From Actinomycetota bacterium (GTDB taxonomy: Bacteria > Actinomycetota > AC-67), in assembly GCA_020201525.1 (NCBI GenBank), contig JAIVGO010000105.1, positions 57-64,056 on the forward strand: a stretch of 64,000 nucleotides of DNA. The letters are read 5' to 3'. Shown one piece after another: positions 37,820 through 52,598 of the stretch (its first letter is position 1; the number at the start of each line of letters is the position of its first letter). The translations under genes and the position numbers were made by a program. The notes under the pieces were generated by a model, which was given only the letters and a program-made list of their open reading frames with translations, made no database searches and was not told the DNA's origin.

Positions 37820-37886
37820 TTTTCGAGTGCAACACCCGGCAAAATCAACGTTCCATAGAGCGAACAGTTCCGGTTGCCCGAAGAAC

Positions 37887-37900
37887 TAGAATGTGTTCTA
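37887..37900. promoter_or_regulatory. KstR-type operator variant (TAGAATGTGTTCTA) upstream of echA
   Basis: One half-site is AAT instead of AAC. It overlaps the tool-predicted ATG of ech. Confidence 0.6.
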
Positions 37901-37908
37901 CTTTTGCC

Positions 37909-38706
37909 GTGAGCGACCGGCCGCACCTTCTCATCGACCGAGACGGGCACATCGTCACGCTGACGATGAACCGTCCCGATGCGCGCAACGCATTGTCGTC
38001 GGAAATGATCGTCCGGCTCGCCGATGCGTGGGTGATGATCGACGAGGATCCGGAGATACGTGTCGCAATCTTGACGGGCGCGGCCGGACATTTTTGCGCC
38101 GGCGCCGACCTGAAGTCGATGGCCGGCGGCTACGGCAAAGACGAATGGACCGCGCGCACGGCGGAAGACCCGTTCCTCCCATGGAAAGCGCTCCTGCGAA
38201 ACCATCGTTTGCGGAAACCCCTCGTCGCCGCCGTCGAAGGCTACGCCGTGGCCGGCGGCACAGAAATCTTGCAAGGAACCGACATTCGCGTTGCGGCAGA
38301 AACAGCGACGTTCGGCATCGCGGAGGCAAAGCGCGGCTTGTTTCCGCTCGGCGGCTCGACGGTGAGGTTGCGCCGCCAGATCCCGTATACAAAGGCAATG
38401 GAGATCATGCTCACCGGTGAGTTCCTCAGCGCGCGCGATGCGCTCGAGATCGGCCTGATCGGACGCGTGGTGCCCGAAGGCGAAGCGTTGAACGAAGCGA
38501 AGAAGCTCGCCGAGAAGGTCGCGGCGAACGCACCGTTGTCGGTCCAAGCCATCAAGCGTTCCGTGCAGGAAACCGAGGGACTGCCGGAAGAAGAAGCAAT
38601 GAAGATCGAGCTCGAGATCGGCATGCCGATCTTCGGGACGGAAGACGCGCGCGAAGGACCGCGCGCGTTCGCGGAGAAGCGCCCGCCCGAATTCAAGGGA
38701 CGCTGA
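37909..38706 (+). CDS. Enoyl-CoA hydratase (crotonase); start re-set to GTG (VSDRPHLLIDRDGHIVTLTMNRP)
   Basis: Crotonase motifs. The tool's ATG at 37891 lies inside the KstR-type operator TAGAATGTGTTCTA. Confidence 0.8.
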   Translation: MSDRPHLLIDRDGHIVTLTMNRPDARNALSSEMIVRLADAWVMIDEDPEIRVAILTGAAGHFCAGADLKSMAGGYGKDEWTARTAEDPFLPWKALLRNHRLRKPLVAAVEGYAVAGGTEILQGTDIRVAAETATFGIAEAKRGLFPLGGSTVRLRRQIPYTKAMEIMLTGEFLSARDALEIGLIGRVVPEGEALNEAKKLAEKVAANAPLSVQAIKRSVQETEGLPEEEAMKIELEIGMPIFGTEDAREGPRAFAEKRPPEFKGR

Positions 38707-39306
38707 GTGCGGCCTCGCATCGCAGCGGCGATCCGCGCATTGGTCGAGCACGCGGTCACCGCCGACGTCCCGGACGAACAAGCAGAACGAGTTGCCGCCG
38801 ACATCGAAAAGCTGGACGCGCACTTCCAGTCATTTCCGAGACGAGCCCCGCGAAGCCCGGCGCTGCCGGATCTCACAGATATCCAAGCTTCGTTCTCGGG
38901 TGACCCGATCATCGGCGAGGCGAACCCGATGGCTCCACCGGTCCACGTCCTCGTCGACGGAGAACTCATTCGGGGAGCCGTGCGCCTCGGCGACCCGTAC
39001 GAAGGCCCGCCCGGATACGTGCACGGCGCCGTGGTGGCGGGAATCTTCGACATGCTCCTCGGCCTCGCGAATATCGCGAGCGGCAACCCGGGGATGACGG
39101 GAACGCTCACGATCCGGTACCTGCTCCCGACACCGCTTCATACCGATCTCGCGTTCGAAGCGAAGACGAAGAGCGTCGACGGGCGCAAGATCTACACCGC
39201 CGGAGCGCTCTATGCAGGCGAGACGCTTACGGCCGAAGCCGACGGGTTGTTCGTCAGCGTCACCGGTTCACGGTCTGAATCGATCTTTTCCGAACGGCTC
39301 GGGTAG
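38707..39306 (+). CDS. Hotdog-fold thioesterase-like protein (PaaI/4HBT-type)
   Basis: YVHGAVVAGIFDMLLG resembles the PaaI-type active-site helix. GTG start directly after the ech stop. Confidence 0.6.
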   Translation: MRPRIAAAIRALVEHAVTADVPDEQAERVAADIEKLDAHFQSFPRRAPRSPALPDLTDIQASFSGDPIIGEANPMAPPVHVLVDGELIRGAVRLGDPYEGPPGYVHGAVVAGIFDMLLGLANIASGNPGMTGTLTIRYLLPTPLHTDLAFEAKTKSVDGRKIYTAGALYAGETLTAEADGLFVSVTGSRSESIFSERLG

Positions 39307-39342
39307 CAAGGAATCCCCGCCTTCGCGGCGAATCAGTGCAAC

Positions 39343-40845
39343 GTGACAAAGCGATACTCACTCGTCCTCGCACTCCTTACGGCGCTGTCGTCCCTCGGCG
39401 CCCAGATGGTGTCGCGCGCGACGCCGGAGAATTGCGGGCCGCTCGCGGCGCACCGAAGCGCCCCGGCGAGCGGAGTGCCCCGGACGGATACCGCCGACCG
39501 CCGCGGCATCCGCGCGTTCGCCGTGCAGTTCAAACAAGACCTGCGCTTCGTGGAAAGCTACGCGACGTACCGGCAAAAGATGCGGTGCATGATGGAGACA
39601 TACGTCGTGCCGAATCTCTCCCCCGACGTCCCGAACCTCGTGGTGTTCAACGAGGACATCGGGCTCATGACGCTTGCGATCGGCTCGCGCGGGAAGGCCG
39701 TTCGCGAATTCGCGAAGAGCCGAGCAGGAAAGGCGGGTGGCGACCAAAGTGGAGCGCCGGCGGGTGCGGCCGGAGCACTCGGGCTGGCGAATGGCGCGTA
39801 CGCAAGCCAAGTCGCGTACTACCAAGCCAAGTTCCCGGGGATCGACCCGCGCAAGCAAGTGTTCCTCGCTGCGACCGACACCTTCGCGCGAGCATTCTCC
39901 CAAACGTTCAGCGATATCGCGCGCGACTACGGCGTCTACGTGGTCGCGTCCAACAACCAAGGCCTTTTCGAAGAATCGACCGACCCGGCAGACGTTGCAG
40001 CACTCGGAGATCCCGATCTCCTTCCCGGCGTTTCAAGTGTGTACGTGGCGACGGGTCCGGAGGTGTGGAATCAAGTGTTCTTGTGGGGGCCGGAGGACAC
40101 TGCTCCTGATGCGCCGGCGCCGGAGCGGAATGTGCTTTTCCGAAACAAGAAGGTTCCGCTGACGGCAATTGAAAAGGATTTCATCGCGCTCGATGAAGGA
40201 CCGTCGACGGGTCCGGGTGCCGCAGCGAACATCGGCGCAGCAGCCATTCCCGGCAGCGACGCAAAGCTCGGATTCGCGACGAGCCTTCCCGCGTTCGTGT
40301 ACGGCTACAACATAGGTTCGCCTCGTCCCGCGGTCAACGCTTGCAGCAACACTGCCGTCTACTACATGCCGTGCATGAGCGATCTCGGCGTCAACGTCGT
40401 CGTCCAAGCAGAAGCGAACCCAGGACGATGGGCGTCCCTCGGCGGGCAAGCGGAGTGGCAACCGTTCGAGTGGATGGGTTCCACGTGGCGTGCCGTCGCC
40501 GATCCCACGGTGAACTTCCGGTACAACATCACACCGCACATGGTTGGGAACTTGCTCGACCTGGCCTTCGACGGACAGACGGCAATAACATCGCGCGACG
40601 GCGGCTACCCCGCTGCCCACTACGTGGGAAACGTTTCTTCGGAAGCCGAGAGCGAACAGGGAGATCCCGAATACAGCTTCTACATCGGCGACAAGGATCA
40701 GTTCGTCACGCTGGCGCCGTGGGTGAACAACACCGACGACCGCGAACTGTTGCGAGCGACATCGACCCGGCTCGCGCCGGCATCCGACGACCCACTGGAA
40801 AACGACTACCTGGAGACGGTGCTATGGGCAGATCTCGTGTTCTGA
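39343..40845 (+). CDS. Secreted protein with possible carbon-nitrogen hydrolase (nitrilase-superfamily) fold
   Basis: N-terminal signal peptide. Motifs VVFNEDIGL (Glu), LFRNKKVPL (Lys) and MPCMSD (Cys) are reminiscent of the nitrilase E-K-C triad, but the Cys motif is degenerate. Confidence 0.6.
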   Translation: MTKRYSLVLALLTALSSLGAQMVSRATPENCGPLAAHRSAPASGVPRTDTADRRGIRAFAVQFKQDLRFVESYATYRQKMRCMMETYVVPNLSPDVPNLVVFNEDIGLMTLAIGSRGKAVREFAKSRAGKAGGDQSGAPAGAAGALGLANGAYASQVAYYQAKFPGIDPRKQVFLAATDTFARAFSQTFSDIARDYGVYVVASNNQGLFEESTDPADVAALGDPDLLPGVSSVYVATGPEVWNQVFLWGPEDTAPDAPAPERNVLFRNKKVPLTAIEKDFIALDEGPSTGPGAAANIGAAAIPGSDAKLGFATSLPAFVYGYNIGSPRPAVNACSNTAVYYMPCMSDLGVNVVVQAEANPGRWASLGGQAEWQPFEWMGSTWRAVADPTVNFRYNITPHMVGNLLDLAFDGQTAITSRDGGYPAAHYVGNVSSEAESEQGDPEYSFYIGDKDQFVTLAPWVNNTDDRELLRATSTRLAPASDDPLENDYLETVLWADLVF

Positions 40846-42047
40846 CAATTCTCTTCGCAGCCGGCCTTCTGGCAACCGGTATGAGTGCGCGCGCGGCAAC
40901 GCCATCGAGCGGGATTGTGAGCTCGTCAAACGACGCATTGAGCTGGTCGGGCTCATTCGATGCGATCGTGACGCCGGGCATCCTCGCGGAGTGCAGCCTT
41001 GGCATCTGCGACAAGTTCACGTACACGGTGAACCTTGCTGAGAGCGCGACCGAGGAGATCGAAGTGGCAGTGCGCTGGCTGAGCGAATCCACCGACACGG
41101 ACCTCGACCTGTTCGTCACCGATGAAGAAGGCGCGGTGGTCGGCCAGTCGACGGGTCTCGATTCCTCGGCGGAAGTCGCGCACATTCCCGTGTCCAACGG
41201 CACGTTCGACGTGTGGGTAGCGCCGGTCACGCTCGACGAGCCCTTGCAATACAGCGGCCGCATCGAAGTCGAGTCGCCGCCGGCCGTCGAACCCGTGCGC
41301 GATCTGCTGCCGAACATGACGACGCTCGAGCCGCACACACTCATGATCGCCACCGGCGAGTACTACATCGATCCGGTCCACAACGAAGCCGTCAGCTGCT
41401 ATCCCGAAGAGATCACCGATCCAGACGAGCAAACGCCGACGCGCTGCTTACGCTTCGATCAAATCGCCTACAACCAAGGCGCGGGCCCGCTCGAGCTTCG
41501 GTTCAATCCGATCGATCCGAGCAATGCCGGATCACCCCGGTTGCGCCAGCGGATTTATTCGAGCGACGGCACGTATCGTGAAGTCACCGCCGAAGACGCG
41601 ATGGAGTTTCACCCCATCCACGGGCACTGGCATTACTCGGGATTCGGTCTCGGGCGTTTGTACGTCGACGGCAACCCGACGCCGGTCCGTCAGAGCAACA
41701 AGAAAGGCTTCTGCTTGATCGACGTCGACTTCGAAGGATGGGGCGCAAAGGGAAACGGGCCACGCAGCTATTCAGCGCCGGGCTGCCTCGTTCCCGATCC
41801 GGATGAAGGCGGCGACGTGGTCATGGGAATCGATAACGGCTGGGCCGATGTCTACAACTGGTTCCTCGCCGACCAATTCATCGACATCACAGGACTCGCG
41901 GACGGGGTCTACCGCCTTGAAATCATCGCGGACCCGGGCAACACGCTCGTTGAATCTGATTACACGGACAACGCGCGGTCGACGTGGATCTGTATCAGCG
42001 GCACGACGGTGAACAAGGTGGCGGGTCCGGACGCAGCGTGTGTGTGA
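40824..42047 (+). CDS. Secreted lysyl-oxidase (LOX) family protein (copper amine oxidase with LTQ-cofactor-type catalytic domain); start re-set to MGRSRVLTILFAAGL
   Basis: Signal peptide; HPIHGHWHY (the HxHxH copper site, compare LOX WHSCHQHYH); KKGFCLIDVD (compare KASFCLEDT); QFIDITGLADGVYRLEIIADPGNTLVESDYTDNARSTWICI (compare [39 protein letters not shown]). 22-bp overlap with the previous gene. Confidence 0.75.
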   Translation: MGRSRVLTILFAAGLLATGMSARAATPSSGIVSSSNDALSWSGSFDAIVTPGILAECSLGICDKFTYTVNLAESATEEIEVAVRWLSESTDTDLDLFVTDEEGAVVGQSTGLDSSAEVAHIPVSNGTFDVWVAPVTLDEPLQYSGRIEVESPPAVEPVRDLLPNMTTLEPHTLMIATGEYYIDPVHNEAVSCYPEEITDPDEQTPTRCLRFDQIAYNQGAGPLELRFNPIDPSNAGSPRLRQRIYSSDGTYREVTAEDAMEFHPIHGHWHYSGFGLGRLYVDGNPTPVRQSNKKGFCLIDVDFEGWGAKGNGPRSYSAPGCLVPDPDEGGDVVMGIDNGWADVYNWFLADQFIDITGLADGVYRLEIIADPGNTLVESDYTDNARSTWICISGTTVNKVAGPDAACV

Positions 42048-45023
42048 TCACACAGCGGCCGGCTGCTCCTCGGACGAGCCGAGATACGCCGCGATGACGA
42101 CATCGTCCCGCTGAACGTGCGCGGGTAGCCCTTCGGACAGAAGCTTGCCGCGGTTGACGACGTACATGTAATCCGAAACCGACGTCACCATGTGCACGTC
42201 GTGCTCGATGAGCAGGATCGACGTGCCGAGGTTGTCACGCACGTGATACAGGTGCTCGGCAAGCTTCGCGGTCTCGGTGTTGTCGAGACCAGACGCCGGC
42301 TCGTCAAGCATAACCAGCTTCGCGCCGCTGACGAGCGCGCGCGCGAGCTCGACCATGCGCAGCGTTCCGAGCGGCAATCCTGCGACCGGCCGGTCGGCGA
42401 TGTCGTCGAGGTCGAGCAAGTGGATGACGCCGGCCACTTTCTCGCGCGCGGCGCGCTCACCGCGAAGTGCGGCCGACGTGACGGCGACGTGTGCGAGCAC
42501 ACCGGTGGGATTTTGCAAATGCGTAGCGACGAGCAGGTTCTCGAAGATCGAGAGCTGATGAAAGAGTTGGACGACTTGGAACGTGCGGCCGACACCGAGC
42601 CCGGCGCGCTTGTGCACCGGCCAGTCGGTGACGTCATGGTCGAAGATCCGCACGCGCCCACCCGTCGGCACCACGAGACCGGAGATCGCATTGAACGTCG
42701 TCGTTTTCCCAGCGCCGTTCGGGCCGATGAGACCGACGATTTCCCCTTCCCGAACCGACAACGACACATCGTCGACTGCAACGAGCCCGCCGAAGCGAAC
42801 CGTTAAGCCCTCGACGTCGAGGACGGCGAGGTTTTCAGTGCGCTCCACCGACGGCCGTCGCATCGCCGTTTGTTTCTTCGAAGAACCATTGGTCGGCGCA
42901 TCGATGTGTGGAGCGAAGGCCGGACCGATACGAGCCCGGGTGCGTCGGCGCGGCGAGAGATTCATCCGTCGGGCGAGAGCCTGTGGAATGCCGGCAAGAC
43001 CACCGGGGTACATCAGCAAAACTCCGGCGAGCAGCCCGGCACTCACGAGCTCCAGGCCGCCGGGAACGGTGACGCGATAAAAGAGCTCGCCCAAGCCGGC
43101 GAACAAGATCGCTGCGCCGATTGCTCCGCCAAGACTGCTCACTCCGCCGACGACCGCAACGGCGAGATAGAACAGCGATTTGTCGAACCCGAATTGTGCC
43201 TCGGCATTTACCGATCCTGCTCCGGTGATCAACAAGTTGCCGGCGATTCCGGCGAGCATTCCCGAAATGGCGAACGCCAGGAGCTTGTACCGAGTGACGT
43301 CGATACCGAGTGAGGCTGCCGCCGTCTCGGAGCCGCGGACCGCGAAGAACGCACGGCCGGTTTTCGAGTCTCGCACATTGAAGAGCGCCCACAGCACGGC
43401 TGCGGCAACGGCAAGCGCAACGTAATAGAACGTCCTTCGCTCGGCGAAATCGAAGAATGGAAATGCGCCCGATCGCCCGATCGCTTTCACGCTGATCGAA
43501 GTGCTTCCTCCCGCGCCCCCGACCAACCAGGGTGACTTGAACAGATATTCGTTCGACATCCAGAGCACGATCAGCGTCGCCACGGCGAGATACAGGCCGC
43601 GCACCCTCAGCGCGACGAGCCCAACAACGGCGGCAAATCCTGCCGACGCCACCGAGACGAGTGGAAGGTTGAGCGGAAACTGCAAACCGGCGCGATTGCT
43701 CAAAAGCGCAGTAGTGAATGCACCGATGCCCAGCAGCGCCGCCTGCGCGAGTGAGATCTGACCGACCCATCCCGTGAGGAGAACGAGCGAGGCGGCGATA
43801 AGCAAGATGATGCACGCTTGAATCGCGTCGCCGAGCAATGAAAACGGTGCGCCGATAAACGGGCCGATGATAAGGCCGGCAAGAACGATCAGGATGAGAA
43901 CCGCTTTCGCAAGCCGCATGCGGAACAGCCGAACGACCAAACGAGCTACAGCACGACCGGCCCTTCCGGCGCTCGGCAGTAAGGCCCCAACCACAACCAA
44001 CGACATCGCGACCCATGCGCGGTGAAAAAGGAGCGCACCGACCACGGCGCCGGCGCCGGTAAGGCGGGCGAGAGTGCGGCGAAAGCTTGATCCGAGGTGC
44101 AGTCGGGATTGGGCCGGCTCGTCCAACGCCGGCGAGGCGCTGCTTCCGACGAAACGTTCGCCGCGGAGTGCCATGACGACAAGCGCAACAAGCGTCAAGA
44201 CAAGCTGCGGCGCGCCGAGCTGCGTCGCGAATCCGCCGATGCCCGGTATAAGGGCGATCGCCGGCACCATGCCGAGCACGATCCCGACGACGGCAGATCC
44301 AGTCGCCGCACCCGGAAGGCTGCTGAGTCCGCCGAGCAACGCCGCAACAAACGCCGGCAAAACGATGAGGGTCAAGTTGATCGGCTCGAGCACCGTGACG
44401 GGCGCGAGAAGAATGCCCGCCAACGCGGCAAGTGCTCCTCCGAGCGCCCACGCAAGTCGCGTCGTCGCGTCGGGATCGATTCCCATCAACGACGCAGCCC
44501 GGCGGTTGTCGGCCGCCGATCGCATCGCAAGCCCCACCTCGGTGAACCGGAAGAGAGCGAACAGCAAAGCGACGCACGTAAAAGCGACCGCCAAAAGACC
44601 GATCTGCCCGAAACGAAGGATCGACGCGCCGACGTGAATGCCGCCCTCCGGAAAGAGCCGGACGGCCCCCCGTGGTGTCGTGCCCCACAATTTCACCGCC
44701 AGGCTGAGCAAGATGCCGAGCGCGGCAATTGTGCCTACTGTTTGGGCCGTCGGCCCTTGACGCCGCAATGCGCGTACAAACACTCGCTCGATGATGATCC
44801 CGATCAGGGCACCGAACGCGACTCCAAGGACGAGCGCTGCCACAGCCGGCACGTGGTGCTGCACCAGTGAGTACGTCACAAACGCGGGAACCATCGCCAT
44901 CGTGCCGTGCGCGAGATTCAACACGCGCGACGATTGGTGAATGACGACGATGCCAACCGCGAATAACGCAAAGGCCCCGACGAGCGGTAGCGAAAGAAGG
45001 AAGTAGACCGGAACCTGGCTCAT
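42048..45023 (-). CDS. Branched-chain-amino-acid-type ABC importer, triple fusion LivH-like permease + LivM-like permease + LivG-like ATPase (991 aa)
   Basis: Two successive permease domains (about 1-290 and 330-640) followed by Walker A GPNGAGKTT, a signature-like LGTLRMVELARAL, and Walker B LVMLDEP. Confidence 0.85.
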   Translation of the reverse strand: MSQVPVYFLLSLPLVGAFALFAVGIVVIHQSSRVLNLAHGTMAMVPAFVTYSLVQHHVPAVAALVLGVAFGALIGIIIERVFVRALRRQGPTAQTVGTIAALGILLSLAVKLWGTTPRGAVRLFPEGGIHVGASILRFGQIGLLAVAFTCVALLFALFRFTEVGLAMRSAADNRRAASLMGIDPDATTRLAWALGGALAALAGILLAPVTVLEPINLTLIVLPAFVAALLGGLSSLPGAATGSAVVGIVLGMVPAIALIPGIGGFATQLGAPQLVLTLVALVVMALRGERFVGSSASPALDEPAQSRLHLGSSFRRTLARLTGAGAVVGALLFHRAWVAMSLVVVGALLPSAGRAGRAVARLVVRLFRMRLAKAVLILIVLAGLIIGPFIGAPFSLLGDAIQACIILLIAASLVLLTGWVGQISLAQAALLGIGAFTTALLSNRAGLQFPLNLPLVSVASAGFAAVVGLVALRVRGLYLAVATLIVLWMSNEYLFKSPWLVGGAGGSTSISVKAIGRSGAFPFFDFAERRTFYYVALAVAAAVLWALFNVRDSKTGRAFFAVRGSETAAASLGIDVTRYKLLAFAISGMLAGIAGNLLITGAGSVNAEAQFGFDKSLFYLAVAVVGGVSSLGGAIGAAILFAGLGELFYRVTVPGGLELVSAGLLAGVLLMYPGGLAGIPQALARRMNLSPRRRTRARIGPAFAPHIDAPTNGSSKKQTAMRRPSVERTENLAVLDVEGLTVRFGGLVAVDDVSLSVREGEIVGLIGPNGAGKTTTFNAISGLVVPTGGRVRIFDHDVTDWPVHKRAGLGVGRTFQVVQLFHQLSIFENLLVATHLQNPTGVLAHVAVTSAALRGERAAREKVAGVIHLLDLDDIADRPVAGLPLGTLRMVELARALVSGAKLVMLDEPASGLDNTETAKLAEHLYHVRDNLGTSILLIEHDVHMVTSVSDYMYVVNRGKLLSEGLPAHVQRDDVVIAAYLGSSEEQPAAV

Positions 45024-45029
45024 GCGCCG

Positions 45030-46517
45030 CTACGTCGGAATGTCCTTGCCGGCATCTAGATCCTCGAGCTCGACGCGTTCGTCGCGCCATCCGGAGAACC
45101 GGTCTTTGTACTGGATCGACCACGCTTGCATGCGCGTATTGGCGAAGTGATCCCCGGCTCGCCACGACAGTGGGGGCGTCAGTCCCGTATCCAGTGTCAT
45201 GTTGTTCAAGACGGCAATCAGCCGTTCGCGGGTGAGTTGCGGCCCGACGTCTTGAAGCGCCTTCACCATCATTGTCATACCGAGATATGCGCCTTCCACG
45301 AACGTGTTGGTGAAGTCGGCGCTGCTCCCAGTTTGCATAGCGTTGACATAATCGCTGACTGCGCGCCTGCCAAGATTCGCACCGATGGGCGGGTTGTACC
45401 CGGTCCACAGCCACAGCCCGTTGCACCGCGTCCCGCATTGCTGCGCAAAGCTACGCGTGAACAGCGGTTGGGGCCCGCCCATCCGGATGCCATCGGAAGG
45501 GCTCAGCGCGCCGGCCGTCAGCCAGCTGATCGCCGTCGCCGGCTCGAGCAACAGAGCGACGAAGTCGCACTTCGGCGCGCTCAAACACGCATTATTGAAA
45601 ACCTGGATTTGCGGACCATAGCTCACCTGCGAATTCGCAATCCCACAGAAACGCTCTTTGCACTGTGCGTTCTTGAACGGGTTGGAAAAGCCGGGAACCT
45701 CTGCGTGTGTCACGCGCTTCACTGCGGCGTTGAACGCGACCGCTCCCTCGAGGCCGAAGTGATACGTGCTCTCATACACAATGCCGAAGTGCCGCGCCCC
45801 GGCGTCGTACGCCTGCTGCACCATGATGTGCATCGCCGACATGGTCGACGCTGCTACCGGCCAGATATACGGATCAAGGTACTGGTGGATGAGCATCCCA
45901 TCAGAGCCGACGACAGGAACGCCCTTCTTCTTGAGATAGCCCGCGTTGGAGACGTTCTGCAGACCCTCAGACGAGGGAACGACCGCGAGGGCGAAGACCT
46001 TCTTGTCCTCGACCAGATTCCGGATGTAGTCACCGCCGAGGTCGAACTTCCATCCGTCGTCTTTCAAGAGAAGACTAAGCTTGCGTCCGCACACGCCGCC
46101 GGTGCGGTTCACTGCGTTCGCGACGGCCGTCATACCGTATCGCGCGTCGTGGAGGAAGCTCGCGCCGATTCCCGTATTGACGATCGTCGCGCCGAGCTTG
46201 ATCTCGCTTCCCGTGACGCCGACGTCCGTTGCCCCCCCGTTTCGACCGGCTGCGCATTGAAAGGAAGCCGGCGCCGGCGGCAACACCGACGTCTTCTGCA
46301 GGTCGTTCGGCGAAGACGAGTCGACCGGCGCGACGGATCCGAGCTTTCCACCTGATTGCGTAACTTCTCGAACCACGGAGCTCGTCGGCTTCTTCGGGGG
46401 AGCAACGACGACGGCAGAGGCAGCGATGGCTACCCCGGACAGCACCGCTAACGTCAGCCACGCGGGCGAAATGCGGTAATGATCACCCGATCGACGGAAC
46501 GGCAGCCGTACCTTCAC
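45030..46517 (-). CDS. ABC transporter substrate-binding protein (Liv/amide-urea family) with N-terminal membrane anchor; GTG start overlapping the upstream stop (GTGA)
   Basis: Periplasmic-binding-protein type I pattern. The GTG at 46517 shares GTGA with the stop of the 848-aa surface-protein gene. The tool's ATG start at 46586 is 23 codons further upstream, inside that gene. Confidence 0.8.
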   Translation of the reverse strand: MKVRLPFRRSGDHYRISPAWLTLAVLSGVAIAASAVVVAPPKKPTSSVVREVTQSGGKLGSVAPVDSSSPNDLQKTSVLPPAPASFQCAAGRNGGATDVGVTGSEIKLGATIVNTGIGASFLHDARYGMTAVANAVNRTGGVCGRKLSLLLKDDGWKFDLGGDYIRNLVEDKKVFALAVVPSSEGLQNVSNAGYLKKKGVPVVGSDGMLIHQYLDPYIWPVAASTMSAMHIMVQQAYDAGARHFGIVYESTYHFGLEGAVAFNAAVKRVTHAEVPGFSNPFKNAQCKERFCGIANSQVSYGPQIQVFNNACLSAPKCDFVALLLEPATAISWLTAGALSPSDGIRMGGPQPLFTRSFAQQCGTRCNGLWLWTGYNPPIGANLGRRAVSDYVNAMQTGSSADFTNTFVEGAYLGMTMMVKALQDVGPQLTRERLIAVLNNMTLDTGLTPPLSWRAGDHFANTRMQAWSIQYKDRFSGWRDERVELEDLDAGKDIPT

Positions 46518-49060
46518 GACTGCGTCAGCCTTCGCAAGACCCGGCGCCGGGCCGCGAAAAAGACGGGCGCGACAAACAAAACCCAAAGCCCAACCGATCG
46601 CGCGAACATTCCTCCTTCACCGGCGACGAGAACCTTCCATCCATGTCCGATCGTCCGGACGACGCGCTCAACGATGCTTTCCTTCGGCGGCGTCACAACC
46701 GGCCGCTCCAGTTGAGGCACCTCAATCTTCGGCACAACCACCGGCGGCAGTGGTACTGCGGGCGGCTCGACAACGGCCGGCACGATCCGAATCGACGTCG
46801 CGTCACCCTTCGTCGCCGCGAAGTCGAAAATGAGACGGGAGGCGAGCGCGCGGTCGTTCACGAATGTCAGGCGCAGCGCCGGCACTTGGGTCTCGGTCTT
46901 CTCTTGATTGTTGATCACAATGTCTTCTTGCTGTTGCCAAGGGTCGCGAATCGCGTGACCATGTGCGCCACCTTTGGTCTTCAGCACATCGGCTGAGGGC
47001 AACTCGACCCGAACTTGCGCGCCGAGCTGCGATGAGATTCCCTCGGCGACTTTAGACGCGTCGCACGATTCGGCTCCGCCGCAACTGTAGGTGTCCGTCT
47101 CCACGCCTTCGAAAATACGCTCGTACGTCGCCGACGATCCGCCGGGCTTACCGGTCGCGCCGACGTTGATCTCCGATCGCACAAAAGCAATGGAGACTCC
47201 ACCGGTGATACGTATGTTGCGCGCCTCGGCAAAGACGGTTCCGACGAGCTTGCCTGTCGCGTCGCGGTGCAGCTCCGTTCCGCTCAGCGATGATCCGATC
47301 GAAATGAGGTTCGGGATCGAAACGCCGCCGAATTCGGCACTCGACCTCGCCAGAGACTTCTCGAGAGAACACGCCCCTGTCGCATCGCCGTCGCCCTGCG
47401 GCGCTTCGCCGTCGAGCGCGCGTGCGTGCACGTGCGGGCTCGAAGGCGTGCCGCCGAAGTCGCCGCACTGGGCTTCCTCGTATCGCCAATCAGGAAGCGA
47501 CACGGATTTCTTTATCGTGTCGTAATCGGAGACGGTGTTCGCGTCGCGATCCACGGCAACGGCTTCCGTGCTCGACTCGTCGTTGCTCAAATGGGTTCGC
47601 CGGATCCGCGCGAAATACAAGTTGCGGTCTCCGTCCTTCAATCCGGTGGCGTTGCCGAAGGCACCCCAGTAATCGCCCCCAAACGAGAAGACGTTTTGCA
47701 ACGCGGCATTCACGCCGCCGATGCGTTCGATGCGCAGCCCGAACGCTTGCGCGTCGGCGGCAAATTGCGGTTCTTCGGTCGTGAGTGAATCCAGCCGGGT
47801 GAAATCCGTGGTTCCTCCCGGCGCAAACTCGTCGTCCGAAAGCGTGTCGCGGAAGACCGTGTAGACCCACGTGGAGTTCGGTCCCCGGATGGGCACGACG
47901 ATCGAAGAGTTGAACGGGACGGTGACGACCGCCCCGAGGTTCGGACCGTATCCGAAGCTCGTGGCTTGCGGTATCTCGTAACCTCTGTCCCCGCTCACGA
48001 GCACGGCACCGTCGATGTCCACGTACATCCTTCCGTTCTCCGCGTTGAGCCCTGCTCCCAGAACGTTGAGGTTTCCAGCCGCGATCTGACCGACGAACAC
48101 TTTGTGAATGCCGTCGAAAACCCACACCGATTGCGCCGGGGAATTTGGATCGGATGCCACCAACACGAGGCGCTTCGCTTTTTGATCTGCGTACACGTCG
48201 CCTCGCGCGTAGCTCCCGGGGAGGAAATAGAGCTGTTGGACGCTCGTGTCCTTGCGTTCGACCGCAGCGACGGCTTGGACGCCCGGAGCGACAACCGACT
48301 GCGCTTGCGTCGCGCCACATCCAACGATGACGGAGTCCGGCGTTGTAAGTGCTTCCGCTTGCGTAAAGTAGGTGATTGCCGACTGGCATCCGCGCAGAAC
48401 AACCGGTCCCCAGGTCGCATCTCCCCCGACCCGGTCAATCTCCACGACGAACACGCCGGTCATCCGAGGCACGTCGGCCGACGGGAGTACACGAGCCTTC
48501 AGCCCCGGAACAGCCTGTCCGATCAGGAGGATCCGGTTTTGACTTGGAATCGTCATCCCGAGAGGGCGAAGCCCAGGCGGGAACACCGTTGCCAGCGGCA
48601 GTTCCGACGCAACGTCGAACGAGTCCAAATTGATCGTTACGAGCGTCGGCAACGTCGTGTTGTCCATGGATTCCGATGTCGGATACGTGACGAGAAGCAA
48701 ACGGCGCGCGGCTTCGTCGATTGCGAGAACGCGCGGCTTTCCCCCGCCACCACTTTGTTGCCAGTAGGACGGGTACGTCACGCTGCGAACCTTACGAAGA
48801 TCATTGCCGTCGTACGCCGTGATCCATAGAGGGCGATCGAGGTCGCCGCCGACTTCGAGCAAGCGCCGCGCATGGTTGTCCACGACGAGCTGGCTTCCCG
48901 AGGTGAGAGGAATCGTACCGACGGCATGCAGTCCGGGTTGGGCGGCATTCGCCGCTACGGGAAAGACGGGAATCAGTGCAAGAACAGCGATGACCGCCGC
49001 GAGACGAATCCCGCGGCAGCTTCGCCGTTGCGCAAGCCACGCCGAGCGCAACTCACGCAT
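46514..49060 (-). CDS. Large secreted/cell-surface protein (848 aa): signal peptide, beta-propeller-like N-terminal region, Pro-rich stalk, C-terminal TM anchor with basic tail
   Basis: Signal peptide MREL...PVFPVAANA. Repeated YVTN-like segments. PAVVEPPAVPLPPVVVPKIEVPQLERPVVTPP linker. C-terminal VGLWVLFVAPVFFAARRRVLRR. Confidence 0.7.
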   Translation of the reverse strand: MRELRSAWLAQRRSCRGIRLAAVIAVLALIPVFPVAANAAQPGLHAVGTIPLTSGSQLVVDNHARRLLEVGGDLDRPLWITAYDGNDLRKVRSVTYPSYWQQSGGGGKPRVLAIDEAARRLLLVTYPTSESMDNTTLPTLVTINLDSFDVASELPLATVFPPGLRPLGMTIPSQNRILLIGQAVPGLKARVLPSADVPRMTGVFVVEIDRVGGDATWGPVVLRGCQSAITYFTQAEALTTPDSVIVGCGATQAQSVVAPGVQAVAAVERKDTSVQQLYFLPGSYARGDVYADQKAKRLVLVASDPNSPAQSVWVFDGIHKVFVGQIAAGNLNVLGAGLNAENGRMYVDIDGAVLVSGDRGYEIPQATSFGYGPNLGAVVTVPFNSSIVVPIRGPNSTWVYTVFRDTLSDDEFAPGGTTDFTRLDSLTTEEPQFAADAQAFGLRIERIGGVNAALQNVFSFGGDYWGAFGNATGLKDGDRNLYFARIRRTHLSNDESSTEAVAVDRDANTVSDYDTIKKSVSLPDWRYEEAQCGDFGGTPSSPHVHARALDGEAPQGDGDATGACSLEKSLARSSAEFGGVSIPNLISIGSSLSGTELHRDATGKLVGTVFAEARNIRITGGVSIAFVRSEINVGATGKPGGSSATYERIFEGVETDTYSCGGAESCDASKVAEGISSQLGAQVRVELPSADVLKTKGGAHGHAIRDPWQQQEDIVINNQEKTETQVPALRLTFVNDRALASRLIFDFAATKGDATSIRIVPAVVEPPAVPLPPVVVPKIEVPQLERPVVTPPKESIVERVVRTIGHGWKVLVAGEGGMFARSVGLWVLFVAPVFFAARRRVLRRLTQS

Positions 49061-49132: not shown

Positions 49133-49759
49133 TTACTGGACGGCCTCGATGCCACCGACGATCGCGAGCTGGTTGAAGCAAGCCTTCAATCCGCCGGGAC
49201 CGGCGGTACAGTCGATACCCGGCACGACACCACCGGGAATGATGACCGGCGCAGCGGTCGCCTCTGCACGTGCCGTCGGATAGGAAATCCCGTTGCACTT
49301 GAAAGAATCGAGGCGAAGATCGGCAACGACCCCGAGCGAATGGCCCTGGAGGTTCCAGCTGCAGCTGTTACTGCCGCTCGTGATGCTCATGTTGCCGACG
49401 ATGTCGGTCACGATGGGCGTTGCAGCCAAAGCGTTGTACGCGGGCTCGAGCGGCGAGGTTCCCGTCAGCGGCGTCGAAGAGCATCCCGAGTGCGTCGCGT
49501 CGCCGTGCTTGCAGAACGAGAACGCGCCACTTAACGGGAACGTTCCGGCCACAGAACCCTCACAAGCCACGTTTCCGGAGACCGTTCCGAAGCCGCCATT
49601 GACGAGAATCAGGTTCTCGTAGCCGCCGCCGTTGTCGAGCAGGACCGTGCCCTCGACTTGACAGACAACGCCACCGGCTGCATGCGCGGGCGCGAATCCG
49701 AAGACCATCGCCAGCACGACACCGATCAGAAGAACGATTCGAATCTTGCGCTTGTCCAC
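49133..49759 (-). CDS. Secreted Cys/Gly-rich hypothetical protein (208 aa)
   Basis: GGAGGTG RBS and GTG start, followed by a signal peptide. 10 Cys in a 180-aa mature region. Confidence 0.6.
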   Translation of the reverse strand: MDKRKIRIVLLIGVVLAMVFGFAPAHAAGGVVCQVEGTVLLDNGGGYENLILVNGGFGTVSGNVACEGSVAGTFPLSGAFSFCKHGDATHSGCSSTPLTGTSPLEPAYNALAATPIVTDIVGNMSITSGSNSCSWNLQGHSLGVVADLRLDSFKCNGISYPTARAEATAAPVIIPGGVVPGIDCTAGPGGLKACFNQLAIVGGIEAVQ

Positions 49760-49912: not shown

Positions 49913-51022
49913 CTAGTCGGTCACGAGACCGTTCAGGCGCTCGAGTGTGTCGGCGCACTCGGTCACCATGTCGAAAATGACGTCCCGCGCGCTGCGCACC
50001 GACTTCATCGAGCCCACGATCTGCCCGACCGGCATCCCGATCAACTCTTCCGGCTGGTAGCGGTAGATTCGGTGGTAGGCCTCGCTCGTGAGCATCCACT
50101 GCAGCGGCATCGGCAGCGGATCCGGGTTCTTCGGGTCATCCCACTCCTCCGTCCATTTCGTGCGCAGCATGCGGGCAGGCTTGCCGCTCATGACTCGTGA
50201 CCGGACGGTATCCCGTGACGAGGCATCGAACAGCTTTTGGACGACGACCGGCGGCGTATCCGCCTCCGCAACCGTCAGCCAGATCGATCCCGTCCAGACG
50301 CCTTGCGCTCCGAGCGCAAGCCCGGCCGCCATCTGACGCCCCGATCCGATGCCGCCCGCTGCGAGCACCGGAGTGGGCGCCACCGCGTCGACCACTTCCG
50401 GGACGAGGACCATCGTTGCTACCTCGGCGGTGTGACCGCCGGCCTCGGTGCCTTGCGCCACGATGAAGTCGACGCCGGCTTCCTTCTGCGCGATCGCTTG
50501 CTCGATGCGGCCGACGAGCGCGGCAACCTTGACGCCGCGCCGGCGCGCCTCGTCGACTACGTCCTTCGGCGGGGCTCCCAATGCGTTCACCAGCAACGCG
50601 ATTGGGTGCTCCCAGCAAACGTCGAGCTGCGGACGCGCCGTCTGGTCGGTCCAACCGAGCAGCTGGTGCGGCGCCGGCTCGTCGGCAGGCAGCTTCGGGA
50701 CGTTGTACTTGTCGAGGATGGCTTCGACGAACTTCTTGTGCTCTTCGGGGATCGACTTTTGAAGCTCCTCCATCAACGACCCGGCGTCGATTTCGGCGCC
50801 CACGTACTTGGCCGGCATGACGACGTCGACGCCGTACGGCTTGCCGTCGACATGGTCGTCGATCCACCTCAGCTCGATCTCGAGCTCGTCCGGCGTGAAG
50901 TACAGGGCGCCGAGGACGCCCATCCCTCCGGCGCGGCTGACGGCTGCGACGACGTCGCGACAGTGGCTGAACGCGAAGATCGGAAACTCGATGCCAAACA
51001 TGTCGCAGATTGGCGTACGCAT
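49913..51022 (-). CDS. Nitronate monooxygenase (NMO / 2-nitropropane-dioxygenase-like FMN enzyme); start re-set to MRTPICDMFGIEFPIFAFSH
   Basis: GIEFPIFA...GGMGVLG and ...AQGTEAGGH NMO motifs. GGAG RBS. The tool's 65-aa extension is junk. Confidence 0.85.
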   Translation of the reverse strand: MRTPICDMFGIEFPIFAFSHCRDVVAAVSRAGGMGVLGALYFTPDELEIELRWIDDHVDGKPYGVDVVMPAKYVGAEIDAGSLMEELQKSIPEEHKKFVEAILDKYNVPKLPADEPAPHQLLGWTDQTARPQLDVCWEHPIALLVNALGAPPKDVVDEARRRGVKVAALVGRIEQAIAQKEAGVDFIVAQGTEAGGHTAEVATMVLVPEVVDAVAPTPVLAAGGIGSGRQMAAGLALGAQGVWTGSIWLTVAEADTPPVVVQKLFDASSRDTVRSRVMSGKPARMLRTKWTEEWDDPKNPDPLPMPLQWMLTSEAYHRIYRYQPEELIGMPVGQIVGSMKSVRSARDVIFDMVTECADTLERLNGLVTD

Positions 51023-51032
51023 TCCAGGCTCC

Positions 51033-52598
51033 TTACGCAGATGTGGCGACGGCCTTCGCCCACGGGTAGTCGGGCTTGCCGCTCGGTTGCCGCTGAACTT
51101 GATCGACGAGGTGAATTTCGCGCGGCACCTTGTAGCGGGCGATGAGCGGGCTGCAAAAGTCCTGGATCGCTTCGAGCGTGGGACTCTTTCCGGGACGCGG
51201 CTGTACGACGGCCGCAACTCGCTCGCCCCACCGGTCGTCCGGCACGCCGACGATCACGACGTCGTATACATCGGGGTGACCCTTCACCGCCGACTCGACT
51301 TCTTCGGGATAGATCTTCTCGCCGCCGGAGTTGATGCAGACCGACCCACGCCCGAGCACGGTCACAATCCCGTCGGCTTCGACGACTGCCATGTCCCCGG
51401 GGATAACCCAGCGCTCGCCGTTTACTTCCACGAACGTCGCGGCGGTCTTTTCCGGATCCTTGTAATACCCGAGCGGGATGTAGCGTTTCAGCGCGAGCCT
51501 GCCGACGGCGCCAGATCCCGGCACGACCGGCTTCAAATCCTCGTCGAGCACCGCGGTGCGCTCGTTCATCATGTAATGCCGGGACCCAGCGCCGAACGCT
51601 TCCCCGCCTTGAAATCCCGTTTCGGTCGCGCCGAAGTTCTCCGCGATGATGGAGTTCGGCAGCAGCGTTCGGAGCTGTTCCTTGACAGCTTCCGAAAGCA
51701 CCGCACCGGTCGAGCCGAAGTACATCAGCGTGGACGTGTCGTACTGCTTTTCCTCGAGCGCGTCGGCGAGCGGACGCGCCATCGCGTCTCCGACGATCGT
51801 CATCGTGTTCACCTTGTTGTCTTCAACCGCGCGCCACGCCGCATGCGCGTCGAAACGCGGAATGAGCGTCACTGTGTCGCCCCAGTTGAAGCCGATGAGA
51901 ACGGCGAGCTGTGCGGCTCCGTGAATGAGCGGGGGAACGGGAAACTGCGACAGCGCGTAGCGCTGGCGGGCGATCTCCGCTTGCTCTTCCGGCTTGGAGA
52001 TCGGATCCATGGTCGGGTTACCGCCGCCCAGCGCCGCGAAGAAGAGATCTTCGTGCCGCCACATGACGCCTTTCGGCATACCTGTGGTGCCTCCGGTGAA
52101 GATGATGAACAAGTCGTCTTGCGAGCGGGGCGCGAAGTCGCGATCCGGTGATCCTGCGTTCAGCGCCTCCTCGTATTCGACGGACCCCTCGAACGGAACG
52201 TCGCTTTCGTCATCCACCACGACCAGCGTGTGCATCTTCGGCGACCGAACCGCAACAACACGTTGCGAAAACTCGCGCTGATGAAAGAGCGCTACGAGAT
52301 CGGCTTCGTCGAATATGTATTTCAGCTCGCCTTCGACGTAGCGATAGTTGACGTTGATGGGAATCGCGCGAATCTTCAAGCACGCCAACAGACCCTCGAC
52401 GTACGGAAAACCGTTGTAGAGGTACATTCCGACGTGGTTGCCGGCCTTCACGCCGGAAGCGAGCAGGTGGTGCGCGATCCGGTTCGAACGGGCGTCGATC
52501 TCGGAGTACGTGAGGCTGCGGTCTCCGACCACGAGCGCAGTGCGGTCGGCAACGGCGTCTACGACCGATTCAAAGATGTCGGCGAGATTGAAGTCCAT
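51033..52598 (-). CDS. AMP-dependent acyl-CoA synthetase (FadD3/FadD17-like context)
   Basis: FTGGTTGMPKG motif. A KstR-type operator lies 10 bp upstream of the ATG at 52598. Confidence 0.9.
   Translation of the reverse strand: MDFNLADIFESVVDAVADRTALVVGDRSLTYSEIDARSNRIAHHLLASGVKAGNHVGMYLYNGFPYVEGLLACLKIRAIPINVNYRYVEGELKYIFDEADLVALFHQREFSQRVVAVRSPKMHTLVVVDDESDVPFEGSVEYEEALNAGSPDRDFAPRSQDDLFIIFTGGTTGMPKGVMWRHEDLFFAALGGGNPTMDPISKPEEQAEIARQRYALSQFPVPPLIHGAAQLAVLIGFNWGDTVTLIPRFDAHAAWRAVEDNKVNTMTIVGDAMARPLADALEEKQYDTSTLMYFGSTGAVLSEAVKEQLRTLLPNSIIAENFGATETGFQGGEAFGAGSRHYMMNERTAVLDEDLKPVVPGSGAVGRLALKRYIPLGYYKDPEKTAATFVEVNGERWVIPGDMAVVEADGIVTVLGRGSVCINSGGEKIYPEEVESAVKGHPDVYDVVIVGVPDDRWGERVAAVVQPRPGKSPTLEAIQDFCSPLIARYKVPREIHLVDQVQRQPSGKPDYPWAKAVATSA

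What the first reader, a model, noticed from the sequence alone, without database searches (positions are those of the whole stretch)
42048..49060. 848-aa surface beta-propeller-like protein translationally coupled (GTGA) to the SBP of a LivH-LivM-LivG triple-fusion ABC importer
The stop of the surface-protein gene overlaps the GTG start of the substrate-binding protein (..CAGTCGTGAAGG..). The SBP is followed 6 bp later by a single 991-aa polypeptide that fuses two permease domains and one ATPase domain. The architecture implies that a large secreted, membrane-anchored protein, possibly a substrate-capturing or processing factor, is made stoichiometrically with the importer. The fusion is an unusual, compact importer design with only one NBD type.
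Basis: seen in the sequence. Interest (0 to 1): 0.6.

Follow-up and report, generated by a model that had tools for sequence, protein, structure and literature searches.

The report
Conserved surface partner of an ABC importer
An unannotated 848-residue membrane-tethered surface protein (a seven-bladed propeller plus a second conserved domain) lies directly upstream of the binding protein of one lineage of Liv-type nutrient importers in every actinobacterial locus examined, so it is probably an undescribed accessory subunit, while the fused permease/ATPase itself is real but common.

Summary
On the minus strand, an 848-aa ORF (46514-49060) ends in GTGA, which overlaps the GTG start of a 495-aa Peripla_BP_6 binding protein (45030-46517). 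Six bases later comes a 991-aa LivH-LivM-LivG single chain (42048-45023).

The fusion is not an artefact. It is one ORF in every complete related locus, and more than 1,200 similar proteins of 816-1069 aa exist. NCBI already names them "permease/ATP-binding protein".

The 848-aa protein is the interesting part.
- It matches no Pfam or NCBIfam family.
- It belongs to a family of 689 clusters (50% identity).
- All members listed have a signal peptide, six invariant cysteines and a conserved C-terminal membrane helix with an RR tail.
- AlphaFold (pLDDT 90) gives a YncE-like seven-bladed propeller plus a 350-residue beta-rich domain that had no visible PDB match.
- In every locus examined (found from the big-protein side or from the fusion side, down to 22% identity) it sits directly upstream of the orthologous binding protein and fusion. 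The NTGA overlap is present in 17 of the 21 loci.

"Only one NBD type" applies to the window's clade only. Other clades encode LivF right after the fusion. The window's one LivF-like gene is truncated.

My best reading is a dedicated extracytoplasmic accessory subunit that captures or relays ligand. The partnership is well supported; the mechanism is inferred.

The parts
49133..49759 (-). First gene of the operon: a 208-aa secreted, Cys-rich small protein with no Pfam hit.
   Evidence: The translation shows a signal peptide (..FAPAHA/AGG). A GGAGG lies upstream of the GTG start. No Pfam hit. Homologues sit directly upstream of the big gene in L001, L002, L006, L007 and L009. Homology to the small secreted proteins of other clades is not shown; only the signal peptide aligns.
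46514..49060 (-). 848-aa accessory protein ('big848'), the founding observation. GAAGGAG lies 5 nt before the ATG.
   Evidence: No Pfam or NCBIfam family matches. The family has 689 clusters at E<=1e-3. AlphaFold2 model with an 82-sequence alignment: mean pLDDT 90.1, pTM 0.85.
48941..49060 (-). Signal peptide of big848 (aa 1-40). The likely cleavage site is ANA/AQ, read by eye.
   Evidence: Sequence. Hydrophobic segment at residues 18-36. N-terminal hydrophobic segments appear in nearly all family members printed.
47846..48931 (-). Seven-bladed beta-propeller of the YncE / amine-dehydrogenase heavy-chain type (aa 44-405). It contains invariant C225 and C248.
   Evidence: AF2 strands. Foldseek against PDB gives YncE 3vgz (E 1.5e-10, TM-target 0.64) and aromatic amine dehydrogenase 2h47 as top hits. 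Two of 42 family members weakly hit NCBIfam 7_blade_YncE.
46781..47836 (-). Second extracytoplasmic domain (aa 409-760). It has long antiparallel strands plus about six helices and contains invariant C532, C564, C660 and C666. It is the most conserved part of the family, and its fold was not identified.
   Evidence: AF2 pLDDT is mostly above 90 here. Conservation map. No PDB sequence match. Nothing but propeller hits appear in the top 50 of the Foldseek PDB and BFVD lists.
46676..46780 (-). Pro/Val-rich, low-confidence stalk (aa 761-795).
   Evidence: Sequence. pLDDT is 47-74 in this stretch. The region is variable in the alignments.
46517..46675 (-). Amphipathic helix (aa 796-813), then a strongly conserved TM helix with an ARRR cytoplasmic tail (aa 816-848).
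   Evidence: R838 and R839 are invariant. An RR tail is present in 135 of 136 family members, and an LPXTG-like motif in only 1 of 136.
46514..46517 (-). GTGA: the stop codon of big848 overlaps the GTG start of the binding protein.
   Evidence: The equivalent in-frame NTGA overlap is present in 17 of the 21 loci examined.
45030..46517 (-). 495-aa Peripla_BP_6 substrate-binding protein. It has an N-terminal TM segment (about aa 16-40), a low-complexity linker of roughly 60 aa, and then the binding domain (aa 105-465). There is no lipobox.
   Evidence: It is not a LivJ/K equivalog (15 bits against a cut-off of 477). Only weak PDB relatives were found, 3lop and 4n03.
42048..45023 (-). 991-aa single-chain LivH-like (aa 1-295) / LivM-like (aa ~320-700) / LivG-like NBD (aa 733-991). 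The NBD has Walker A GPNGAGKTT, signature region LPLGTLR, Walker B MLDEPASGLD and H-loop LLIEHD.
   Evidence: It is a single ORF in all complete related loci. More than 1,286 similar proteins exist, the best 120 of them 816-1069 aa.

Best explanation
The region is a four-gene operon on the minus strand (49759 to 42048). It encodes, in order:
1. a small secreted Cys-rich protein;
2. the 848-aa protein;
3. a membrane-tethered substrate-binding protein (SBP);
4. a single-chain LivH-LivM-LivG permease/ATPase of the HAAT (Liv/Bra/Urt) family of ABC importers.

The 848-aa protein is a dedicated extracytoplasmic accessory subunit of this particular importer lineage. It is exported by its signal peptide, and its six invariant cysteines probably form three disulfides. 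It is held at the membrane by a conserved C-terminal helix below a Pro-rich stalk. Its propeller and its conserved second domain sit next to the SBP, which is likewise tethered by a long linker.

The most likely mechanism is that it captures the ligand in the cell wall, or holds a ligand-bearing macromolecule, and hands it to the SBP. Its conserved TM helix would dock it on the permease. This is what the C-terminally tethered HtaA/ChtA proteins do for the HmuTUV haem importer of Corynebacterium.

The importer needs a second ATPase (LivF type). Other clades encode it right after the fusion. In this clade it must come from elsewhere in the genome.

Shown: gene content, topology features, fold of the N-terminal half, family size, strict synteny and conservation of the overlap.
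Inferred: physical association, ligand relay, disulfides, LivF supplied in trans, and the substrate (unknown; nothing shows it to be a branched-chain amino acid).
For: Partnership:
- Every homologue of the 848-aa protein examined is followed by an orthologous SBP (41-69% identity) and the triple fusion (47-70% identity). This holds for the close clade L001-L009 and for a distant clade, L010-L018, at 23-27% identity. In L007 and L015 the contig ends within the SBP gene, so only the SBP is seen there.
- The converse also holds. All five carry an 852-916-aa family member directly upstream of the SBP.
- The spacing between the big gene and the SBP gene is -4 nt in 17 of 21 loci and 4-52 nt in the rest. 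GGAGG-type Shine-Dalgarno motifs lie inside the 3' end of the big gene.

Location:
- Signal peptide and C-terminal TM helix.
- Six Cys are invariant across 42 diverse sequences, five of them also across 82 and 135 sequences with C666 at >=90%. They are the only Cys in the mature protein.
- No LPXTG motif.

Docking idea: the TM helix is among the most conserved segments of the family, more conserved than the propeller.

Binding rather than catalysis: across 82 sequences the invariant residues are only five Cys, one Gly and two Arg. The GGAHGHA histidines of the window's clade are not conserved in other clades.

Analogy: C-terminally tethered actinobacterial surface proteins that deliver haem to HmuTUV are described in PMC12494546.
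Against: - No experiment and no complex prediction links the proteins physically.
- Several nearly invariant Asp/Arg residues (D292, R297, D316, D405, R479, D506, D736, R742) could form an active site.
- The window's clade lacks LivF in the operon. The only LivF-like gene in the 64-kb window is truncated, so it is not even certain that this copy of the importer is functional.
- Synteny was sampled in about 20 loci, not censused.
Confidence: 0.55

Rival explanations
1. The 848-aa protein is an extracellular enzyme (hydrolase, lyase or oxidoreductase). It releases or modifies the transported compound from a polymer or conjugate at the cell surface, and the SBP then picks up the product.
For: - Seven-bladed propellers of this type include enzymes. 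Aromatic amine dehydrogenase heavy chains are among the best fold matches.
- Several acidic and basic residues are nearly invariant.
- In the window's clade the operon sits among catabolic genes: acyl-CoA synthetases, enoyl-CoA hydratase, thioesterase, P450, ADH, nitronate monooxygenase and acyl-CoA dehydrogenase.
Against: - No catalytic family matches by sequence in Pfam, NCBIfam or PDB.
- Only Cys, Gly and Arg are strictly invariant.
- The His-rich motif is clade-specific.
- The catabolic neighbourhood is not conserved in other clades.
- Nothing explains why an enzyme would need such a conserved TM helix.
Confidence: 0.2
2. The protein is a structural, assembly or regulatory subunit rather than a ligand handler. 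It could be a scaffold that keeps the tethered SBP at the permease, a gate, or a sensor that reports transporter activity to the GAF-histidine kinase / LuxR pair encoded next to the module in some clades.
For: - The conserved TM helix and juxtamembrane helix.
- Both the SBP and the big protein are tethered by long linkers.
- A GAF-HisKA_3 kinase and a LuxR-type regulator lie upstream in L019-L021.
Against: - The two-component system is absent from the window, from L001/L002 and from L022/L023.
- A 700-residue, disulfide-bonded two-domain ectodomain is large for a mere tether.
Confidence: 0.17
3. The adjacency and overlap are coincidental. The 848-aa gene is an unrelated surface protein that happens to precede a Liv-type operon.
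For: A 4-nt overlap alone is common in bacterial operons (general knowledge). No functional data exist.
Against: The order big gene, SBP, fusion is kept in every locus examined, from both search directions, down to 22-27% identity of the big protein and across several actinobacterial orders.
Confidence: 0.03
4. The 991-aa triple fusion is an assembly or frameshift artefact of separate livH, livM and livG genes.
For: None was found. The window's own protein appears in one NCBI record as an 886-aa 'partial' entry, which reflects a contig end.
Against: It is a single uninterrupted ORF in the window and in every complete related locus from independent assemblies. The best 120 hits are all 816-1069 aa and carry BPD_transp_2 and ABC_tran domains.
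Confidence: 0.01

Closest known systems
HAAT-family ABC importers (TC 3.A.1.4: LivJ/K-HMGF, BraCDEFG, UrtABCDE)
   Same: Two BPD_transp_2 permease domains in LivH-then-LivM order. A LivG-type ATPase with the BCA_ABC_TP_C tail. A Peripla_BP_6 binding protein. In most clades, a LivF-type second ATPase.
   Different: - H, M and G are one polypeptide.
- The SBP is TM-tethered with a long linker and is not a LivJ/K equivalog (15 bits against a cut-off of 477).
- A large accessory protein and several small secreted proteins are constant operon members.
- I found no description of accessory surface subunits for HAAT systems in the paper library.
- LivF is missing from the operon in the window's clade.
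LivM-LivG double fusions ('branched-chain amino acid ABC transporter permease/ATP-binding protein')
   Same: Fusion of the second permease to the LivG ATPase, under the same NCBI product name.
   Different: In the plasmid collection, matches cover only about 43-51% of the query (the M-G part). No record covers 80% or more. The triple fusion seen here carries taxonomic labels only from Actinomycetota MAGs, with many further copies on unlabelled metagenome contigs.
HtaA/HtaB/ChtA-C plus HmuTUV haem uptake of Corynebacterium diphtheriae
   Same: Actinobacterial surface proteins with a signal peptide and a C-terminal TM tether. They bind the ligand outside the cell and deliver it to an SBP-dependent ABC importer (PMC12494546). 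From my own knowledge, not checked here, htaA lies directly upstream of hmuTUV.
   Different: No sequence or domain relationship: there is no CR/HtaA domain, and Pfam gives no hit. The transporter family is different, and the ligand here is unknown.
E. coli YncE and the heavy chains of methylamine / aromatic amine dehydrogenases (YVTN-type seven-bladed propellers)
   Same: These are the best fold matches to aa 44-405. There are weak NCBIfam 7_blade_YncE hits in 2 of 42 family members.
   Different: About 12% identity. The window protein itself scores nothing against the YncE model. It also carries a second domain of about 350 aa, a stalk and a TM anchor that those proteins lack.

Membership tests
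HAAT (Liv/Bra/Urt-type) ABC importer | Two BPD_transp_2 permease domains (LivH-like and LivM-like) | tested here: met
   PF02653 E 2.5e-60 with two stretches. UrtB model matches residues 11-253.
HAAT (Liv/Bra/Urt-type) ABC importer | LivG-type ATPase with the BCA_ABC_TP_C C-terminal extension | tested here: met
   ABC_tran E 2e-28 and PF12399 E 1.4e-06. LivG NF008449 gives E 2e-73, but its 246.8 bits are below the equivalog cut-off of 362. Walker A, Walker B and H-loop are present.
HAAT (Liv/Bra/Urt-type) ABC importer | A second, LivF-type ATPase encoded with the system | tested here: not met
   - No LivF follows the fusion in the window, L001, L002, L004 or L009.
- The only LivF-like gene in the window (54749-55390) stops 11 residues after Walker B.
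- The feature is met in other clades, L010-L014 and L018-L023.
HAAT (Liv/Bra/Urt-type) ABC importer | Peripla_BP_6 (LivJ/AmiC-like) substrate-binding protein | tested here: met
   PF13458 E 1.7e-34 over residues 105-465.
Branched-chain amino acid transporter LivJ/K-HMGF in the strict sense (equivalog) | SBP and ATPase reach the curated equivalog scores, and the substrate is Leu/Ile/Val | tested here: not met
   The SBP scores 15.2 bits against a cut-off of 477. LivG scores 246.8 against 362. The substrate cannot be tested with these tools.
YncE/YVTN-type seven-bladed beta-propeller | Seven-bladed propeller fold | tested here: met
   AF2 pLDDT is above 90 over most of aa 44-405. Foldseek top hits are YncE and AADH heavy chain at E about 1e-10, TM-target 0.5-0.65.
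YncE/YVTN-type seven-bladed beta-propeller | Sequence-level match to the family model | tested here: inconclusive
   The window protein has no hit. Two of 42 relatives hit NF052280, best E 2.1e-05. The PDB profile search gives AADH at E 0.33 only.
HtaA/CR-domain haem-relay proteins | CR (HtaA) haem-binding domain | tested here: not met
   No Pfam family matches at E<=0.01 in the window protein or in 42 relatives. This is a functional analogy only.
HtaA/CR-domain haem-relay proteins | Signal peptide plus C-terminal TM tether, encoded next to an SBP-dependent ABC importer | tested here: met
   The description of the Hta/Cht proteins is in PMC12494546.
Sortase-anchored (LPXTG) surface proteins | LPXTG motif before the C-terminal hydrophobic segment and basic tail | tested here: not met
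   An LP.T[GAS] motif occurs in the last 70 residues of only 1 of 136 family members, and not in the window protein.

The most novel reading that the evidence does not exclude
The 848-aa protein and its variable set of small secreted and membrane proteins form, with the tethered SBP and LivHMG(-LivF), a multi-protein cell-envelope uptake apparatus specific to Actinomycetota. This would be a new class of accessory machinery for a HAAT-type ABC importer, comparable in concept to the Hta/Cht-HmuTUV or Mce systems. It would use a previously undescribed domain (aa 409-760) to bind or channel a ligand that a free SBP cannot reach.
Probability: 0.3. Interest if true: 0.75.

Novelty: new variant of a known kind. 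Interest (0 to 1): 0.55.

Why it matters
HAAT/Liv-type importers are textbook five-component systems: a binding protein, two permeases and two ATPases. I found no description of a dedicated surface accessory subunit for them.

Here, a large and well-conserved protein family sits strictly next to one lineage of these importers across several actinobacterial orders. The family has 689 clusters at 50% identity, matches no Pfam or NCBIfam model, and gives a confident two-domain AlphaFold model.

If the protein is a true subunit, three things follow:
- It defines a new family and domain worth curating.
- It changes how these "branched-chain amino acid transporter" annotations should be read in soil and sediment Actinomycetota, because the substrate may be something else.
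- It gives a concrete, testable case of how monoderm or mycolate bacteria bring ligands through a thick wall to a membrane-tethered binding protein.

The triple fusion itself is already catalogued and adds little.

Tried and rejected
**Ideas tested and rejected**
- Frameshift or assembly artefact for the fusion: rejected, since it is a single ORF in all complete loci and more than 1,286 similar proteins exist.
- SBP start at the upstream TTG (46586): rejected on comparative grounds.
- Homology between the 848-aa protein and the 509-aa secreted, TM-anchored protein that follows the neighbouring Liv operon: not supported (BLASTP E 0.28; hhalign probability 1.9%).
- Homology of the 208-aa protein to the small secreted proteins of other clades: only the signal peptides align.

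**Searches that found nothing**
- Sequence annotation of the 848-aa family: nothing in Pfam, NCBIfam or PDB sequences.
- Annotated plasmids hold no homologue of the big protein and no triple fusion.
- Leader RNA or riboswitch: no Rfam match.
- Promoter-like and terminator-like sites are at chance level.
- The hairpin between the 208-aa and 848-aa genes is no better than shuffles, z = 0.04.
- Four literature searches found no description of the module.

- The first AlphaFold run, with 6 sequences, was poor (pLDDT 52). The 82-sequence run superseded it.
- The alignment-based homologous-protein search returned only the same six close relatives.
- The genome-contig scan returned two loci because it used a single narrow peptide pattern. 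It says nothing about true taxonomic spread.
Full report
**1. What is in the sequence**

- 46514-49060, 848 aa;
- 45030-46517, 495 aa when started at the GTG;
- 42048-45023, 991 aa.

The end of the first gene reads CAG TCG TGA. The G of the last sense codon plus the TG of the stop form a GTG that opens the second frame, giving a 4-nt GTGA overlap. The second gene ends in TAG, followed by six bases and then the ATG of the third gene.

Pfam and NCBIfam confirm the domain calls:
- Middle protein: Peripla_BP_6.
- 991-aa protein: two BPD_transp_2 stretches, ABC_tran and the BCA_ABC_TP_C tail. The LivG model matches residues 733-983 and a UrtB (LivH-like) model matches residues 11-253.

There are two corrections. 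The alternative upstream start at 46586 is TTG, not ATG. The operon also has a fourth member upstream, a 208-aa secreted Cys-rich protein at 49133-49759 with its own Shine-Dalgarno sequence. Downstream, a convergent gene for a secreted protein with a lysyl-oxidase-like domain ends at 42047, so the two stop codons abut.

**2. The fusion is real but ordinary**

The H-M-G chain is a single ORF in the window and in every complete related locus from independent assemblies. A search of 5.8 billion proteins returned 1,286 hits at E<=1e-50. The best 120 are all 816-1069 aa and carry the same domains. NCBI already names some of them 'branched-chain amino acid ABC transporter permease/ATP-binding protein'. 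Every hit that carries a taxonomic label is a MAG labelled Actinomycetota, Actinomycetes, Acidimicrobiales, Acidimicrobiaceae, Mycobacteriales or Frankiales; many others are unlabelled metagenome contigs. In the plasmid collection only the M-G double fusion occurs. The architecture is therefore catalogued, although I found no paper that discusses it.

**3. 'Only one NBD type' is a clade peculiarity**

A LivF-type gene directly follows the fusion in L010-L014 and L018-L023. It is absent after the fusion in the window and in its closer relatives L001, L002, L004 and L009, where a convergent gene follows instead.

The window holds a second, conventional Liv operon 5 kb upstream (59356 to 52638). 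It encodes an SBP, a LivH-LivM fusion, LivG and LivF, followed by a 509-aa secreted, TM-anchored protein and a 189-aa membrane protein. Its LivF matches the intact L001 orthologue only over residues 3-173 of 234. It stops 11 residues after Walker B, so it has no H-loop, and no remainder is found in another frame. No other LivF-like sequence exists in the 64 kb.

Because one H-M-G chain brings two membrane domains but only one ATPase, a second ATPase must come from elsewhere. This follows from the established two-NBD architecture of ABC transporters. Where it comes from in this genome is open.

**4. The 848-aa protein**

*Sequence features*
- Signal peptide, with ..VAANA/AQ as the likely cleavage site.
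- Six cysteines in the mature part.
- A Pro/Val-rich stretch.
- A C-terminal hydrophobic helix followed by ARRR.
- No match to any Pfam or NCBIfam model.

*Family size*
- The word-indexed search found only five relatives, at 45-52% identity.
- The exhaustive HMMER search with their alignment found 689 clusters (50% identity) at E<=1e-3 and 262 at E<=1e-30. Most of the 150 listed are 780-1000 aa and match end to end, and they share the same N-terminal and C-terminal features.
- None of 42 diverse members hits Pfam. Two weakly hit NCBIfam's YncE propeller model.
- The PDB sequence profile search gave nothing better than E 0.33.

*Conservation*
- Six cysteines, one Gly and the two Arg of the tail are among the few invariant residues in 42 sequences. 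Five of the cysteines remain invariant in 82 and 135 sequences, with C666 at >=90%.
- Those six are exactly the cysteines of the mature window protein.
- An LPXTG-like motif occurs in 1 of 136 members. An RR tail occurs in 135 of 136.

*Structure*

AlphaFold2 with the 82-sequence alignment gave mean pLDDT 90.1 and pTM 0.85:

| Residues | Element |
|---|---|
| 44-405 | seven-bladed propeller |
| 409-760 | second domain of long antiparallel strands with about six helices |
| 761-795 | low-confidence stalk |
| 796-813 | juxtamembrane helix |
| 816-847 | TM helix |

The conservation map shows that residues 420-760 and the TM helix are the most conserved parts, more so than the propeller.

**5. Is the coupling to the importer conserved?**

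Yes, and this is the main result.

*From the big-protein side*
- All five close relatives and a 37%-identity relative (L009) are followed by an SBP at 59-69% identity, and by the triple fusion at 58-70% identity wherever the contig reaches it.
- A metagenome scan seeded with a distant subfamily returned nine loci (L010-L018). That subfamily is 23-27% identical to the window protein. All nine have the orthologous SBP (41-54%), and all whose contig extends far enough have the fusion (47-54%).

*From the fusion side*
All five loci (L019-L023) carry an 852-916-aa family member directly upstream of the SBP.

*The junction*
- The big gene's stop overlaps an in-frame ATG, GTG or TTG of the SBP (NTGA) in 17 of the 21 loci listed. 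The other four have gaps of 4-52 nt.
- In L011 and L020 an in-frame stop lies immediately upstream, so the overlapping codon is the first possible start.
- SBP N-termini align from that codon. GGAGG-type motifs lie 6-9 nt upstream in most loci.
- The window's GTG start is therefore preferred over the TTG at 46586.

*The tethered SBP*

In all loci the SBP has the same build: a short charged N-terminus, one hydrophobic segment, a 40-90-residue low-complexity linker, and then a conserved C..NGG.TD.GV motif that opens the binding domain. It has no lipobox.

*The fuller module*

Other clades carry additional conserved members:
- a ~205-aa secreted protein;
- one or more ~155-aa secreted proteins;
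- LivF;
- a ~185-aa membrane protein after LivF;
- in three loci, a GAF-histidine kinase and a LuxR-type regulator.

None of the unnamed ones has a Pfam hit. None has a homologue in the window. The window's clade therefore carries a reduced version of the module, with its own 208-aa protein.

**6. How it most likely works**

*Shown*
- An exported, membrane-tethered two-domain protein.
- A tethered SBP.
- A single-chain permease/ATPase.
- Strict synteny with frequent start/stop overlap.
- A TM helix conserved as strongly as the best ectodomain segments.

*Inferred*
- The protein is a dedicated subunit of this importer lineage.
- It docks through its TM helix.
- It uses its ectodomain to capture a ligand in the wall and pass it to the SBP.

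The closest functional parallel is the set of C-terminally tethered HtaA/ChtA-type proteins that deliver haem to HmuTUV in Corynebacterium (PMC12494546). There is no sequence relationship to them.

The substrate is unknown:
- The SBP is far below the LivJ/K equivalog score.
- It has only weak PDB relatives.
- The catabolic neighbourhood of the window's clade suggests an organic acid. It includes acyl-CoA ligases, hydratase, thioesterase, P450, ADH, NMO and acyl-CoA dehydrogenase. This context is not conserved elsewhere.

*Confidence*
- Dedicated partner of this importer lineage: about 0.9.
- Capture/relay mechanism specifically: about 0.35-0.4.
- Rivals: a substrate-releasing enzyme (0.2), a scaffold, gate or sensor (0.17), coincidence (0.03), artefact (0.01).

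**7. Comparison with what is known, and verdict**

The transporter is a member of the HAAT family by four of five defining features. The fifth, LivF, is missing locally. It is not a strict LivJ/K-HMGF equivalog. The propeller belongs structurally with YncE/YVTN propellers. The relay analogy with Hta/Cht-HmuTUV concerns how it may work, not membership.

Its interpretation is partly supported:
- Right about the surface protein, the propeller and the coupling.
- Wrong that the fusion is unusual.
- Wrong that a single NBD type is a design feature.

The new element is a sizeable, uncurated protein family that appears to be a constant accessory of one lineage of Liv-type importers. I rate it a new variant of a known kind, with interest 0.55.

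Noticed in passing
window 54749-55390 (-): The LivF-type ATPase of the neighbouring Liv operon is truncated. It matches the intact L001 orthologue over residues 3-173 of 234 (75% identity) and stops 11 residues after Walker B. The H-loop and C-terminus are missing (about 183 nt), and no remainder exists in another frame. This is either a real deletion or an assembly collapse. It is the only LivF-like gene in the window.
   Followed up: partly
window 52638-59356 (-): A second HAAT operon encodes a TM-tethered SBP (478 aa), a LivH-LivM double fusion (639 aa), LivG and LivF. These are followed by a 509-aa secreted protein with a C-terminal TM anchor (no Pfam hit) and a 189-aa two-TM protein with a weak DUF5671 hit. 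The same arrangement occurs in L001 and partly in L002. Homology of the 509-aa protein to the 848-aa family was not shown. Even so, it is a second case of a tethered extracytoplasmic protein attached to a Liv-type operon.
   Followed up: partly
window 40824-42047 (+), junction 42045-42050: A convergent gene encodes a secreted protein of about 407 aa with a lysyl-oxidase-like domain (PF01186, E 2.2e-07), which is uncommon in bacteria. Its TGA and the fusion's TGA abut as the palindrome TGATCA, leaving no intergenic base. This gene is absent from the syntenic loci L001, L002 and L004, where the fusion meets the thioesterase or enoyl-CoA hydratase gene directly.
   Followed up: partly
L019-L023, L014, L016, L018 (flanks of the module): Outside the window's clade the module carries further conserved genes with no Pfam hit: a ~205-aa secreted protein, one to three ~155-aa secreted paralogues, and a ~185-aa membrane protein after LivF. 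In L019-L021 there is also a GAF-HisKA_3 histidine kinase with a LuxR-type regulator.
   Followed up: partly
window 42051-42827 (-), NBD of the fusion: The ABC signature region reads LPLGTLR in the window and GLPFG in most of 119 fusion proteins, instead of the canonical LSGGQ-like motif. Walker A, Walker B and the H-loop are canonical. The neighbouring LivG has MSTGLLR. Whether this marks a degenerate ATP site was not examined.
   Followed up: no
window 33082-40109 and 49913-52598, 59367-60560: The operon is embedded in fatty-acid or aromatic-acid type catabolic genes: three AMP-binding ligases, enoyl-CoA hydratase, a 4HBT thioesterase, a P450, a Zn-ADH, a nitronate monooxygenase-like protein and an acyl-CoA dehydrogenase. 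This neighbourhood is shared with L001/L002 but not with other clades.
   Followed up: no
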